DNA from: Octopus vulgaris
Lineage: Eukaryota
Assembly (NCBI GenBank): GCA_951406725.2
Contig: OX597819.1
Span: forward strand, 100,750,001-100,814,000
Direction of reading: 5' to 3'
DNA length: 64,000 bases
Shown: piece by piece, positions 29,238 through 54,324 of the stretch
How positions within the stretch are numbered: position 1 is the stretch's first letter
How the letters are laid out: each line of letters starts with the position of its first letter
Program-made: the position numbers and the translations under genes
The notes under the pieces: model-generated
What the model was told of the DNA's origin: nothing
What the model saw: the letters and a program-made list of their open reading frames with translations, nothing else
The model's database searches: none

Positions 29238-29693
29238 TAAGCAATAAAGGGTTTAGCAACGAATTGCCTTACCACATACCGAATTTAGAAATAGCAGTCA
29301 AAGAGTTATAGCTATTTCTTCTACTAAAAAGGGAGATCTCAGTAAAAAACACAGCAATTGGAAGGCAGACACAAACAGGTAAGAGAGAATGAATTGACGG
29401 CAATCTATCATAAAATTTTAAGTTATCTACGGACGCACGTTTCGAAATCAAGATTTAATTCTCATGCTTTCCTAAAAACTTGATTTCGAAACGTGCGTCC
29501 GTAGATAACTTAAAATTGTATGATAGATTGCCGTCAATTCATTCTCTCTTACCTGTTTGTGTCTGCCTTCCAATTGCTGTGGTTTTTACTGAGATCTCCC
29601 TTTTTAGTAGAAGAAATAGCTATAACTCTTTGACTGCTATTTCTAAATTCGGTATGTGGTAAGGCAATTCGTTGGTAAACCCTTTATTGCTTA
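29238..29693. repeat. Long inverted repeat, 215-bp arms and 26-nt spacer
   Basis: 29238-29452 is the reverse complement of 29479-29693, with about 3 mismatches by eye. The ORF track shows mirrored 60-aa ORFs. Confidence 0.97.
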
Positions 29694-29969
29694 TATATAT
29701 ATATATATAATAATAATAATAATAATTACTATTTGAGGGAATAAAATCCAAACTTACAAGGAAAAAAAAATCAAATTAGAAATACTAAATCAAATTTTAC
29801 ACGATATAAAATATATATAAAAAATTAGAAAACCACCTTTAATCAATTCAAAATGAATTACAGCATCTATAAATTTATATATAATAGAAATATTAAAATT
29901 AAAATAATAAAATTTCAATGATTAAGTAAATTGCAAAAAAAATAATAAAAACCTATGTAATTGTTAGAA

Positions 29970-30060
29970 TAATGACACGTGTTTCGTGGCTATATTTAAG
30001 AAATGATTATAGTCGTAGTGAAATCACTTCGAAATAAATATAGTCGCTAATCAGGTTAAA
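29970..30060 (-). ncRNA. Degenerate type-I hammerhead ribozyme-like motif with long stem II
   Basis: Reverse complement: CTGATTA-GCGACTATATTTA...GAAGTGATT..AATCATTTC..TAAATATAGCCAC-GAAAC-ACGT-GTC. Confidence 0.6.
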
Positions 30061-30200
30061 AATAAACTAGAACAATAAAATAATTAATTAATAAATATAT
30101 TTTAATATATATATATATGAAAATACTAAATATACATAAGTGAAAACTAATACAATACTTAAATTATTAAATACTTTAAAATTAAATAAAATGCACAAAG

Positions 30201-30675
30201 CTAGTACAAATCATTAAATTGTAATCAAAATAAGAAATGGTTCAAATATAGACAAACTCCTTGAAGAAGCTAATCATATAATAAATATACATGTGTAGTA
30301 TCTATAGATTTAATATAACAATCTATAACAAAGTTGACTAAATATCAAATAATATAATACCTAATTAACTTAAAATTTAATATTAAAAATAAATAATCCA
30401 CCTAATAATTAAATAATATATTGTCTGACGAAATTAATTCTTAAAATTAATTAACTGTAATACGTTAGATCGCTTTATATAAATATATATATATCTAAAA
30501 ATATATAAATAAATAAATAAAGAGATATAAGAATTCATATCTATCGTAACTTATATCTATCAATATATATAAAAAAGATATAATGGCGAGAATAATATAT
30601 AGTTATCTTATTTAAGGAGTTTGTCAATATTTGAACCATTTCTTCTTTTGATTACAATTTAATGACTTGTACTAG
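30201..30675. repeat. Inverted repeat, arms about 62 bp (30201-30262 and 30614-30675)
   Basis: ctagtacaaatcattaaattgtaatcaaaa...gacaaactcctt versus aaggagtttgtc...ttgattacaatttaatgacttgtactag. Confidence 0.9.
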
Positions 30676-31134
30676 TGAGGGACCACTATCTGAGAGAGGA
30701 ACACGGATGTAAAGATTCACGTGATTGCTAATCATGCCAATTTGGTCTGTCACTTGATGCTAAACACAGAGACAGGCGTTTATCACTACAATACAACGAT
30801 GTATCTTGAGGGCGACCTCAGTTCTCACTCCATATATGGAAAGTATTGTGATGATGGAAAAGTGGCAATGCGTGCAAACCTAACCAGTTGGTAACGCGCA
30901 ATTAGTTGCAACTTTCGTCTGCCGCCTATCTTTTAAACCATGGAGATCTGGAGCAGGACTGAGTTGTTATCTAAGAGCTGGTGGAGTAAAAGCCAAAAAT
31001 ACCATCGATAAATAAGAGACGGCAATCCTGTGTGAAATTGGAGTAATAGCTACGTACGTATATTCATATACAATACTCATAGTATTTTACAAGCTTAAAA
31101 GCGACAACCGCGCAATCACTAAAGAAAATAGTCT

Positions 31135-31660
31135 AATAATAGGGTATATAAGCCCACGGTTGAAAGAAATAGGCTTTCCCGTACGCGTGGGACTCGAACC
31201 CACACGTTTTTGGTTTCGCGACAAGAGTGCTAGCATTACACTAGCGGACAAGCTACTCCATTCCGACAGATTTAAGGACTATAATTAGTTCGTATTATTG
31301 TTTTTGTAAACAAACAGTCATGGTAGCGTTCTTGTGAAAACAAAGAGGCGTGGGTTCGAGTCCCATGCGTACGGGAAAACTTATTTTCTTCCGTCGAGGG
31401 ATTATATGTCTTATTATTAGTCACTGCACGGTGAACACTTATAAGATACAACTACTAAAATTTACTGAATTGTGAAAATCGACGCTGCTTAACAAAAACC
31501 ATCGCAGTAAAAGCACATGAAAAATTTGTTGACAACGACAACACAACGAGCTAATTACAGTTCTTCAATCTGACGGAATGAAACGGGTTGTGCGCTAGTG
31601 TAATGGTAGCATTCCTTTCGCGAAAACAAAGAGATGTAGCTTCGAGTCTGACGCGTACGG
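31135..31660. repeat. Three copies of a tRNA-like unit (one on minus at 31135-31275; two on plus at 31318-31420 and 31567-31660)
   Basis: A box tagtgtaatggtagc, B box gggttcgagtccc, shared cgtacgggaa end and shared flanks. The anticodon arm is not canonical, so this is not called a tRNA gene. Confidence 0.8.
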
Positions 31661-51010: not shown

Positions 51011-54000
51011 ACATGTATGTATGTATGTATGTATGTATGTGTGTGTGTGTGTGTGTTTGATTTATAAATAGACCAGGGACAAAGGAGACATAGAGCGACT
51101 TTTTACATCACGAAAATTTAATTACTATTTCAGAAAGAGTGAAAATTATCTTCAAACTGCTCTACTGTAGAACAAATATAAGGATGCTTTAATAAAGGCT
51201 AAAGGCTTGCTGGTAACAGATATATATGAATTTAGTATAATTTTCGTTAATCTCAGCGAAACAGAATTATTGAGAGTAAACAAAGATGTAGAAGCGTCTA
51301 ATTAAAACAACATTAACGACATTGCACCCCAAATCTGCATAACATAAAAACTCAGGCAATAATTACTTTGATGACATTTCAAGTATACGTCCACATATTT
51401 GCCTACCCCACAAGAATTCGTTGTTTGCTATAGGACACATTGAATAATATTAGTCCCCGTATATAAAAATATTTTTAAAGAATTTATAATCTTAGGTGCA
51501 ACAATATATTTTTTTTTTCATAAATCTGGACGATCTGAGCTTACTTGATGCTAAACATCACACAATAATTAAAGCCACAGCTGAAGTCCACGAGCATCGA
51601 ACTCACCACTTTGTAAATATCCTACAATCTGCATATATTATGCATATCATCTATGCATGTTTAGTTACTTAAAATCGGTACAAGTAGCAAAATATTGCGT
51701 TATTTGTGGAATGGAAAGACATTACATATATTACTAAACGGAGTCTATGCATCTTAAACCCTCCTCGCTAGTGTCAGCCATCTCATACAATCTGTATCTT
51801 GTACACTGCTTTCTTTTCCTCTTTCTACTTTATTGTCATATATCTATCATTTAAATACATCTATGTATTTGTTTTGCAAGATTCTTGATATGAATTCGTG
51901 TGTTGAAACAGATATTTTTATACTTGGGGATGGTCATATTTGGCCAATTAAGCACACGCACTATATTCTTGGTATTCATTTCAGCTTTATTTTAATAATC
52001 TTCATTTCTTTGTTCTAAAATTCATTTGTTACATCTTTTGTGTCTTCTTCATCGACTCCTCTCAGTCGATGGTCTCAGGATGTGTGGCGAAATAAGTTTC
52101 ACAAAGGAACTAAAATAATAATATTAAAGCTGAAGTGAAAACCAAATATATCTTGCATGTGTTTAATTGTTAAAACATGACCATCCTCAAGTATAACAGT
52201 ATTATTCATATTTATATCTGTCTATCTGTCTACCTATAGATTTATCTGTCTAGCCAAATATGTATCCTTCCTCCTATCTATCGGTCTGTCTATCTGTTTG
52301 TCAAAATATCCATCTTTCTCTACCCTTATATAGCTGTGACTACATTCATTTATTATTGCATCTATCTCTCTAAACAGTTCACGCATCTTTTTTAGCCTAT
52401 CTCTCCGTCCCTCAATTCATCCATCTTTCTATCGGCATATGCGTCTATTAACCTATATATCTGCCTACACGTTTATCTACATATCAATCTTCTTATATAT
52501 CTCATACCTAGCCTTATATCTATCTCTTAAAGTGATTATGTGTATATCTATCCGCCTGCATTTGTATGTATGTACGTACGTACGTACGTATGAATGTATG
52601 TATGTATGTATGTATGTATGTATGTATGTATGTATGTATGTATGTATGTATGTATGTATGTATGTATGTATGCATGTATGTATGTATCGTATCTATCTCT
52701 GTATATGTGTGTGTGTGTGTTTGTATGCTTGTATATATATATATATATATATATATATATATATATATATATATGTGTGTGTGTGTCTACTTTCCGTTTA
52801 CATGCATAGCTACAGCAAACTTAAAGGACGTTATCCGATTTTAAACAGTGGAACAATAAAGTGAAAAAAATAACAAGAAATAAACAATAATTGCGTTGCA
52901 TTAGGCAGAATTGAATATGGGAAAGTCAATTAGATTCGTAGTAATACAACTCAGTGTGTATCTGTGTTTGTACAAATGTGTGCGAGTGAGTGGGTTGTAG
53001 TGGGTGGTGGAATAAAAGGGGAAATAATTGATTGTAACAAAAATGCTAAACTAAATAACGAAAAAAAACAGGAATAATTATATAAACAAACAAAGCGGTA
53101 ATTAACTAAGTAATAAAGAGTGTGGCAGCTGTACATTTGATGCTGTTGAGGGATAATGGTATGAGATGTTAATGATGACTAAATAATTAGAAAAAAAAAT
53201 ATTTGATAATTCTATGAATGAGGAGATGGTATAAAATAGATGTATGAAAGTGACGTAGATTTCTTGAAATTAATTACTTTGAATCGTATATGTACGTATG
53301 TGTGTGTATGTATGTATGTATATATGTATGTATGTATGTATATATATGTGTGTGTGTGTATTTATGCATGTATGTCTGTATGTATGTATATATATATATA
53401 TATGTATGTGTGTGTGTGTGTATGTATATATATATATATGTGTGTATGTGTGTGTGCGTGTATGTGTGCGTGTGCGTGTGTGTGTGTAAGTATGTATGTA
53501 TGTACCTATATATGTGTGTGTTTGTGTATGTATGTACCTATGTATATGTGTATATATGCATGTGCGAATCTAAGCGTGTATCTATACACAAGTCTATCTC
53601 ATCTACATCTCTCTCTCTCTCTCTCTCTCTTTCTATATATCTATCTATCTATCTATCTATCTATCTATCTATCTATCTATCTATCTATCTATCTATCTAT
53701 CTATCTTTTTGTCTATCTAGCTAGCTAGCTAGGTAACTAACTAGCTAGCTATCTGTGTATTTCCCTCTTTTCTTCTCTCTCTCGCTCTCTTTCTGTCTGT
53801 CTGACTGTCTGTCTGTCTCTCTCTCTCTCTCTCTACACACACACATAAATATATACGTAAGTTTTTGGACTAATGGGAATATATGACAGTTATTGTATTG
53901 AGTAAAGCACATCCACTGTTTGGGCTACCTGGTGTCATCCACAGCGGCGATTATATTTCCCCTGGATCTACATGAGGAATTCCGGAGTGTTAGTAAAGAT

Positions 54001-54051
54001 AATAATCGATGAAGGAAACGGAAGATAGATTTAGCACTAGTCTATATTCAC

Positions 54052-54154
54052 TACGACGATCGTTTCGACCCATCATGCAACTCTCTGTTATGGACGGGCT
54101 ATTGTGCATCTAACTGTGTTGCATTAATCTGTGCAGTTTCTGGGACATCAGGTA
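54052..54154 (-). ncRNA. Degenerate type-I HHR-like motif with long stem II
   Basis: Reverse complement: TAC-CTGATG-TCCCA...ATGCAAC...GTTGCAT..TGGGTC-GAAAC-GATC-GTC-GTA. Confidence 0.6.
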
Positions 54155-54230
54155 CATGCATAAAGAAAGAGATGTCCCGCTAGATATACTGAGTTGTGGT
54201 AGGCACATTGTTCTTGCCCGTTGTATTTTG

Positions 54231-54288
54231 GTTATGACCGGCTAATGAGGCTAGCTATTGCTACCTAGCCCCATTAGCCGGTCATAAC
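54231..54288. repeat. Hairpin with 24-bp arms (one mismatch) and a 10-nt loop
   Basis: gttatgaccggctaatgaggctag-ctattgctac-ctagccccattagccggtcataac. Confidence 0.92.
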
Positions 54289-54324
54289 AAACAGAGAGAT
54301 ATATATCTGCTTATATAGACAAAT

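What the first reader, a model, noticed from the sequence alone, without database searches (positions are those of the whole stretch)
29238..54290. Recurrent architecture: HHR-like motif, fold-back end and microsatellite flanks across unrelated short repeats
Seen: at least six sequence-unrelated units carry HHR-like motifs (29430-29500, 29970-30060, 32974-33081, 44179/44749, 45794-45833, the 47244-50918 pLTR family, 54052-54154). Most sit in or beside an inverted repeat and next to (TA)n or similar tracts. Stem III is always a short, mostly palindromic run (ACGT, CCGG, GCGC, GATC). Inference: a diverse population of Penelope-derived non-coding ribozyme elements is a major source of palindromes in this genome.
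Basis: partly seen in the sequence, partly recalled or inferred. Interest (0 to 1): 0.75.

Follow-up and report, generated by a model that had tools for sequence, protein, structure and literature searches.

The report
Penelope retroelement ends with hammerhead ribozymes
Seven unrelated repeat families in this stretch carry predicted self-cutting (hammerhead) RNA motifs and often sit as mirror-image pairs in TA microsatellites; three are the ends of protein-coding Penelope-type jumping genes, whose enzyme likely makes the mirror copies, a known layout that here explains about a quarter of the inverted repeats in a genome sample.

Summary
All seven units are high-copy repeat families whose majority columns form type I hammerheads with a self-complementary stem III. 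Only one window copy (45795-45833) passes my descriptor; the others are damaged. Three families are the terminal repeats (pLTRs) of protein-coding Penelope-like elements, one is a 596-nt non-coding tandem retrozyme, and three showed no ORF. So 'non-coding' is only partly right. In six families an inverted partner lies 5' in 49 of 138 loci and 3' in 2; the SINE control has 0 of 24. The commonest family (F6) shows no such bias. In an 800-kb genome sample, 24-29 of 107 inverted-repeat loci are hammerhead-linked, all head-to-head. Pairs usually join one short-ended and one long-ended arm, and often neither arm contains the other. This favours two primings on RNA over fold-back. The layout is published for Penelope elements, and this scan found it before on other DNA of this genome. 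New here: the share of palindromes, about 35 motifs per Mb, and a family with a G3-C8 core. Cleavage and expression are untested.

The parts
29124..29456 (-). F1 inverted arm, long end (about 110 nt beyond the partner's end), with the 3' half of the hammerhead at 29426-29443
29457..29693 (+). F1 direct arm, 5'-truncated copy of a 596-nt tandem monomer; 3' half of the hammerhead at 29488-29505, CUGA strand missing; ends in (TA)n
29730..30598 (-). F2 copy, AT-rich, no ORF found; damaged hammerhead (core 30048-30054 with G8 changed; 3' half 29974-29985)
30593..30675 (+). Inverted internal piece of F2 at its 5' junction
32944..32975 (-). Inverted tip of the F3 long tail; this sequence is absent from the direct arm
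32971..33124 (+). F3 direct arm; core 32978-32984, long stem II, stem III 33066-33077, stem I damaged
44122..44445 (-). F4 inverted arm: tRNA-like head (44359-44445), trinucleotide tract, damaged minimal hammerhead (core 44210-44216), short end
44750..44880 (+). F4 direct arm, long end; core 44753-44759, 3-nt deletion at the cleavage site
45618..45850 (-). F5 direct arm, 3' end of a young protein-coding Neptune-type element; intact U3-A8 hammerhead 45795-45833; ends in (TA)n
45846..45980 (+). F5 inverted arm, short end (about 30 nt shorter), ends in (TA)n
47201..47297 (+). F6 pLTR fragment with U6 hammerhead variant (47250-47276)
47934..47978 (+). F6 pLTR fragment, damaged core
48385..48562 (+). 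F6 pLTR upstream of the reverse-transcriptase remnant (motif 48438-48464)
49400..50750 (+). Decayed Penelope-type reverse-transcriptase remnant, in pieces; endonuclease part appears deleted in this copy
50833..51010 (+). F6 pLTR downstream of the remnant (motif 50885-50912, G12 changed)
53839..54244 (-). F7 copy, long end; U9 hammerhead variant (core 54145-54151, stem III 54055-54066)
54228..54291 (.). Small palindrome at the 5' junction of F7

Best explanation
These units are 5'-truncated ends of Penelope-like retroelements and of non-coding repeats that likely borrow their enzyme, each carrying a predicted dimer-type hammerhead, and the mirror-image pairs are likely made during insertion by two priming events. 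Shown: hammerhead anatomy in seven families; RT plus GIY-YIG coding sequence upstream of F4, F5 and F6; a 596-nt tandem monomer without ORF for F1; inverted partners almost only on the 5' side; two fixed outer ends per family. Inferred: the endonuclease nicks both strands of an AT-rich target, usually (TA)n. Each 3' end primes reverse transcription on element RNA, one at the long terminus and one at the short terminus. Both cDNAs stop early and are joined head to head over a few bases of microhomology. Where they cover the same sequence a palindrome results; where they do not, a plain 5' inversion. The ribozyme would trim or circularise the precursor RNA as a dimer through its palindromic stem III, and it is likely a marker of the elements rather than the cause of the palindromes.
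For: Core and stems in 7 of 7 family majorities. 28-30 descriptor hits in 800 kb against 0 in reversed decoys. F5 lies downstream of an 808-aa open frame with Pfam RVT_1 above cut-off (E 2.8e-7), a weak GIY-YIG match (E 0.067) and a CX4CxxC linker; 21 of 25 F5 loci hit that protein. The F4 head follows Penelope RT sequence in 11 of 18 loci. The F6 pLTR follows RT remnants in 10 of 14 other loci. Inverted partner 5' in 49 of 138 loci, 3' in 2 of 138; SINE control 0 of 24, Fisher p 1.5e-4. With longer stretches at least 15 of 24 F5 loci have one, including a 6.2-kb palindrome at 99.86%. F5 inverted arms end at one position in 12 of 12 complete pairs, about 30 nt short of the direct arm, and in 4 of these 12 the short-ended arm reaches further 5'. 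F7 pairs are short plus long in 8 of 8, three with no overlap between arms; F4 10 of 12; F2 5 of 6; F1 6 of 9. Literature: inverted 5'-truncated copy, tail and (TA)n bias (PMC8557442, PMC3846280, passages); two RT start sites bounding the tail, both strands cut and extended, ribozyme mutants not affecting insertion in vitro (PMC11167929, parts 1-2 of 4).
Against: F6, about half of detectable motifs, has no 5' bias: 3 of 24 on each side and 0 of 14 in the random sample. The first unbiased co-localisation test was weak: 4 of 29 against 7.1%, p 0.15; 4 of 15 without F6-like motifs, p 0.018. The wider test (9 of 30 against 13%, p 0.012) used a descriptor widened after I saw palindromic families. 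Loci are the best-scoring copies, not a random draw, and for F2, F4 and F5 the query selected long-ended direct arms. No parent ORF was found for F1, F2, F3 or F7. F1 has 2 short-short pairs of 9. No cleavage or expression data.
Confidence: 0.85

Rival explanations
1. Fold-back self-priming: one cDNA (or an antisense template) folds on itself, perhaps at hammerhead stem II, and copies itself to give the inverted arm.
For: Proposed for Adineta Penelope elements (PMC3846280, Discussion passages). Fits the small junction palindrome at 54228-54291 and near-perfect pairs such as L046. The F1 window junction lies within the stem II region.
Against: In the window, F1's inverted arm holds about 110 nt that its partner lacks, and F3's inverted piece shares nothing with its partner. 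The same holds for 4 of 12 F5 pairs and 3 of 8 F7 pairs. F5 junctions are spread from +76 to -3139, not tied to the ribozyme.
Confidence: 0.08
2. Independent insertions: copies land separately in the same microsatellites, and later recombination or chance leaves opposite-strand neighbours.
For: The genome sample is 13.7% simple repeat, and 37 of 107 inverted-repeat loci are pairs of high-copy repeats. F6 behaves this way.
Against: Polarity 49 against 2; arms abut with short overlaps and no host DNA between them; arms 97-100% identical in F1 and F5; short-plus-long pairing.
Confidence: 0.04
3. MITE-like DNA transposons with terminal inverted repeats; the hammerhead-like words are chance matches in AT-rich DNA.
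For: A true TIR family exists in the sample (IR loci 2, 3, 34). Rfam gives no hammerhead match.
Against: Decoys give 0 hits; the 3-8 core pair covaries as C-G, U-A and G-C across families; arm lengths and ends are asymmetric; most copies have no partner; parents encode RT.
Confidence: 0.03

Closest known systems
Minimal and short-stem-III type I hammerheads in pLTRs of metazoan Penelope-like elements (Cervera and de la Pena 2014, PMC4209133; parts 1-2 of 4 read)
   Same: Type I topology, palindromic positions 15.2-16.2 and loop 3, extra base between 9 and 10.1, U3-A8 covariant, many unrelated families per genome, mostly single motifs from truncated copies, some pairs 100-700 bp apart on opposite strands.
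   Different: Density about 35 per Mb, roughly 100,000 if extrapolated, against about 4,000-9,000 given there for coelacanth and Xenopus (different descriptor). Very long stems II in F1, F2, F3, F7; family-wide U6 (F6) and U9 (F7); a G3-C8 family outside the window.
EN+ Penelope-like elements, Neptune and Penelope/Poseidon clades (PMC8557442, PMC3846280, passages; PMC11167929, parts 1-2 of 4)
   Same: RT plus C-terminal GIY-YIG, pLTR with hammerhead, 5' truncation, adjacent inverted 5'-truncated copy, optional tail on one arm, microsatellite bias with the CX2-5CxxC linker (F5).
   Different: Tails of about 80-160 nt in F1, F2, F3 and F7, against the 30-40 bp described. The F4 pLTR begins with a tRNA-like head. 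Short-plus-long pairing is measured here; clade labels rest on motifs, not on a tree.
Metazoan non-LTR retrozymes (PMC7229834, passages; bioRxiv 10.64898/2026.07.22.740005, part 1 of 5)
   Same: F1: low-GC head-to-tail monomers, a complete type I hammerhead in each, no ORF, Penelope-type insertion marks.
   Different: Monomer 596 nt against 150-450 bp; dispersed 1-3-mers in head-to-head arrays; circular RNA not shown. F2, F3 and F7 showed no tandem monomers in the loci seen.
L1 twin priming (recalled, no call)
   Same: 5' inversion from a second primer on the RNA, joined by microhomology.
   Different: Here both primings start at fixed sites near the element end, so the arms overlap and form palindromes.

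Membership tests
Metazoan PLE-type type I hammerhead | Core CUGANGA ... GAAA ... UH, or a compensated 3-8 pair | tested here: met
   F1-F4 canonical and F5 U3-A8 in family majorities. F6 (U6) and F7 (U9) deviate at one conserved position each.
Metazoan PLE-type type I hammerhead | Helix I of 4-6 bp and helix II closing next to the core | tested here: met
   helix I 4-7 bp in all seven; helix II 2-13 bp. F3 lacks the G10.1-C11.1 pair; F5 has only 2 bp.
Metazoan PLE-type type I hammerhead | Short palindromic helix III allowing dimers | tested here: met
   7 of 7 families; 24 of 28 unbiased hits; predicted self-duplex -1.7 to -13.3 kcal/mol with no monomer hairpin.
Metazoan PLE-type type I hammerhead | Self-cleavage | not testable with these tools
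   Needs an in vitro assay.
Rfam hammerhead families | Score at or above the gathering threshold | tested here: not met
   0 matches in 9 family loci; none among the 150 listed window matches.
EN+ Penelope-like element (F4, F5, F6) | RT and GIY-YIG coding sequence upstream of the pLTR | tested here: met
   F5; F4 (head after RT in 11 of 18 loci); F6 (10 of 14 loci, 22-32% identity to the F5 protein).
EN+ Penelope-like element (F1, F2, F3, F7) | RT and GIY-YIG coding sequence upstream of the pLTR | tested here: inconclusive
   No linked sense-strand match to three PLE proteins in family loci or in longer F2 and F3 stretches. F1 is a closed tandem without ORF; long F7 copies were not fetched.
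EN+ Penelope-like element | Inverted 5'-truncated copy and a tail on one arm | tested here: met
   Six families; not met for F6 (3 of 24 on each side).
EN+ Penelope-like element | Bias for AT-rich microsatellite targets | tested here: met
   24 of 29 against 16%; weak for F4.
Neptune clade (F5) | CX2-5CxxC linker before GIY-YIG and the CCHH motif | tested here: met
   Visible in P0001; feature as described in PMC8557442 passages.
Neptune clade (F5) | RT phylogeny | not tested
Non-LTR retrozyme (F1) | Tandem non-coding monomers, each with a complete type I hammerhead | tested here: met
   596-nt period; 29 of 30 loci pass the descriptor, the window copy fails.
Non-LTR retrozyme (F1) | Expression as linear and circular monomer RNA | not testable with these tools
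   No run on record as RNA was listed.

The most novel reading that the evidence does not exclude
Paired priming by Penelope enzymes at two fixed RNA sites is the main factory of tight, young palindromes in this genome (likely an octopus). These palindromes supply much of the near-perfect double-stranded RNA behind cephalopod A-to-I hyper-editing, and the dozens of families form a natural library of hammerhead core variants (C3-G8, U3-A8, G3-C8, U6, U9, C4).
Probability: 0.2. Interest if true: 0.7.

Novelty: new member of a known kind. Interest (0 to 1): 0.36.

Why it matters
The architecture is known, so the finding mainly annotates a repeat class that Rfam misses. Three points have value. 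First, the short-plus-long rule and the non-nested arms bear on how Penelope inversions form, which PMC8557442 names as unresolved, and they predict where the young F5 enzyme should start reverse transcription. Third, an abundant family with a G3-C8 core completes a natural covariation series at the 3-8 pair. I found no paper reporting it in two searches; Lunse et al. on PLE hammerhead variants could not be read and may cover it.

Tried and rejected
Rfam scans gave only microsatellite-driven miRNA matches and tRNA. The repeat finder on the raw window was swamped by simple repeats; I masked and self-aligned instead. Pfam did not recognise three window RT pieces or two other PLE proteins. My first descriptor found one window hit and versions 1-3 missed G3-C8 or odd-loop families; it was widened in four steps, each checked against reversed decoys. 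It remains insensitive to old copies: 6 of 25 F3, 2 of 25 F7, 5 of 25 F6 loci. I took F4 for a separate tRNA SINE; after note e1-8669850 I tested this and found it to be the pLTR of a coding element. I first read the L264 family as ribozyme-free; it has a G3-C8 hammerhead. Fold-back at stem II as a general cause was rejected. Rows dropped before counts: window copies and loci overlapping the same insertion (8 in F1, 3 in F3); IR locus 65 (F6 inside an unrelated repeat) and loci 2 and 34 (TIR element beside F3). Sequencing runs: no RNA holder listed; no reads were laid. Literature searches for octopus with Penelope and hammerhead or palindrome found no paper on this; a search for tRNA-derived SINEs with Penelope and hammerhead found none holding all terms. 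No supplementary files were read.
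Full report
Setting. The window lies in a 2.8-Gb animal assembly of 227 contigs, about 35% GC and rich in (TA)n and other simple repeats.

Are the motifs real? Each unit retrieved a family with 499-3947 first-look candidates, of which 40 were scored and 25-30 fetched. Majority columns show a type I hammerhead in all seven. F1-F4 have CUGANGA. F5 has the U3-A8 covariant described for Schistosoma PLEs (PMC4209133, part 1). F6 has U6 and F7 has U9. Stem III is self-complementary in each: ACGUGCGU, ACACGUGU, ACGCGCGU, ACGU, ACCGGU, ACGU, ACGAUCGU. 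In 80 evenly spaced 10-kb stretches my descriptor gave 28 hits at score 7 or more against 0 in reversed sequence, and 30 against 0 in later versions. That is about 35 per Mb, or roughly 100,000 if extrapolated. Without a palindrome requirement 24 of 28 hits still had a self-complementary stem III, decoys 0. Rfam misses them. In the window only F5 passes the descriptor; F1 has lost the CUGA strand on both arms, and the other copies carry core or stem changes.

Coding or non-coding? F5 is the 3' end of a young element: copies are 99-100% identical, and longer stretches show an 808-residue frame with RT, a CX4CxxC linker and GIY-YIG. F6 follows decayed RT sequence in 10 of 14 other loci and in the window itself. 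F4 consists of a tRNA-like head, an (AAT)n tract and the hammerhead, and the head follows Penelope RT sequence in 11 of 18 loci. F1 is a 596-nt tandem monomer at 98-99% identity without ORF, that is, retrozyme-like. F2 shares at least 1.28 kb of AT-rich upstream sequence without ORF; F3 and F7 share up to about 430 and 170 nt. So three families are coding, one is non-coding, and three are open.

Link to inverted repeats. Excluding window copies and duplicate loci, an inverted partner within 1.5 kb lay 5' in 12 of 21 F1, 7 of 24 F2, 8 of 21 F3, 11 of 24 F4, 6 of 24 F5 and 5 of 24 F7 loci, and 3' in 2 of these 138. The SINE control had 0 of 24 on the 5' side and 2 of 24 on the 3' side (p 1.5e-4). 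With a long reference F5 rises to at least 15 of 24, and all 5 long stretches fetched had a partner, one forming a 6.2-kb palindrome. F6 is the exception, 3 of 24 on each side. In the random sample the test is weaker: 4 of 29 motifs against 7.1% of random points (p 0.15), 4 of 15 without F6-like motifs (p 0.018), 0 of 14 F6-like. With a wider window and descriptor it was 9 of 30 against 13% (p 0.012), but that descriptor was widened after I saw palindromic families. (TA)5 lay within 300 nt 3' of 24 of 29 motifs against 16%.

Share of palindromes. The sample holds 128 inverted-repeat records (arm 40 nt or more, gap up to 1 kb), merged into 107 loci. 37 are pairs of high-copy repeats. Of the other 70, 23 match a hammerhead-bearing family from another locus or contain a motif and one more did so; every match points outward, whereas decoy libraries hit 4-9 loci in mixed orientation. 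Five more look hammerhead-linked by eye. That gives 24-29 of 107, or 34-41% of the 70. Among 17 tight repeats (90% identity or more, gap up to 300 nt) 6-9 are linked. Two families were added to the library because they were palindromic, and two of the 24 loci overlap. A TIR-bearing family and unassigned repeats make up the rest.

Mechanism. Families have two fixed outer ends. In 12 of 12 complete F5 pairs the inverted arm ends at query position 193 and the direct arm at 224-228 (the query selected long direct arms). F7 pairs are short plus long in 8 of 8, in both arrangements; F4 10 of 12; F2 5 of 6; F3 about 6 of 9; F1 6 of 9. In 4 of 12 F5 pairs the short-ended arm reaches further 5' than the long-ended one. 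In 3 of 8 F7 pairs, and in the window's F3 copy, the arms do not overlap at all. The window's F1 inverted arm has about 110 nt that its partner lacks. One arm therefore cannot be a copy of the other, which argues against fold-back and for two primings on RNA. F5 junctions mostly overlap by 0-9 nt, two have short gaps. This fits in vitro data on a lizard Poseidon protein that cuts and extends both strands and starts at two sites bounding the tail, with ribozyme mutants not affecting insertion (PMC11167929). The assignment of one start site to each strand is my inference.

Comparison and novelty. Hammerheads in pLTRs, palindromic stem III, opposite-strand pairs, inverted 5' copies, tails and (TA)n bias are all published (PMC4209133; PMC8557442; PMC3846280; PMC6765202, passages), as is the derivation of retrozymes from PLEs (bioRxiv 10.64898/2026.07.22.740005, part 1). 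Earlier notes of this scan report the same layout and the short/long rule elsewhere in this genome. I class this as new members of a known kind. Additions here are the measured share of palindromes, the F6 exception, and a further coding family (L264, L314-L342) whose hammerhead has G3-C8 in all 34 pattern matches, with a 7-bp stem I and 5-bp stem II (overlapping loci counted, and the pattern left the core free). PMC3088659 (section 8) reports natural U3-A8 and low activity for an A6 change; two searches found no natural G3-C8. Nothing here shows cleavage, transcription, circles or editing.

Noticed in passing
L264:6032-6110; L314-L342; ORF L340:1355-2926 minus: Abundant young Penelope-type family (959 first-look candidates) whose hammerhead has a G3-C8 core and an A15.2-U16.2 pair; coding parent with RT and GIY-YIG and a long microsatellite-rich 3' region; a frequent palindrome in the sample.
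   Followed up: partly
window 44359-44445 minus: tRNA-like head with A and B boxes (Rfam tRNA 15.3 bits, below threshold) at the start of the F4 pLTR; present in about 13 of 24 F4 loci.
   Followed up: yes
L244:2497-2580; L344-L358: Short, strongly palindromic family (1333 candidates) with a C4 core variant, a 3-bp stem II and a 9-nt stem III with a central unpaired base.
   Followed up: partly
F6 family, e.g. window 47250-47276: U at position 6 in 9 of 11 sampled copies while position 7 varies, in the commonest hammerhead family; it spread widely with a core expected to be weak and shows no 5' inversions.
   Followed up: partly
window 12692-14010 and 57077-59103: Two 94-96% identical fragments of a non-LTR retrotransposon flanked by (TAA)n; the frames look like RT plus a restriction-like endonuclease (R4/Dong type, label recalled). 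A similar 3' end sits in the (AAT)n tract of two F4 copies (L091, L094).
   Followed up: partly
window 31050-31663: Three tRNA-like units in alternating orientation (ARAGORN tRNA-Lys call at 31178-31251 minus); a related palindrome at L265:2600-3138 ends in (TA)n.
   Followed up: no
window 51912-52202: Old palindrome (69%) of a family that also forms a 98% inverted pair at L239:2597-3123 and has a hammerhead-like motif with a G15.2-C16.2 pair.
   Followed up: partly
window 41289-41406 and 39656-39706: A 118-nt hairpin element next to (TA)n with a second partial copy 1.6 kb away; no hammerhead found.
   Followed up: no
L343:1809-5564: Another Penelope-type element with a 767-residue frame between hammerhead-bearing repeats, two direct and one inverted.
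   Followed up: no
L221:2468-3231, L221:6192-6954, L256:4137-4595: About 500-nt element with terminal inverted repeats, a non-ribozyme source of palindromes, probably a MITE.
   Followed up: no
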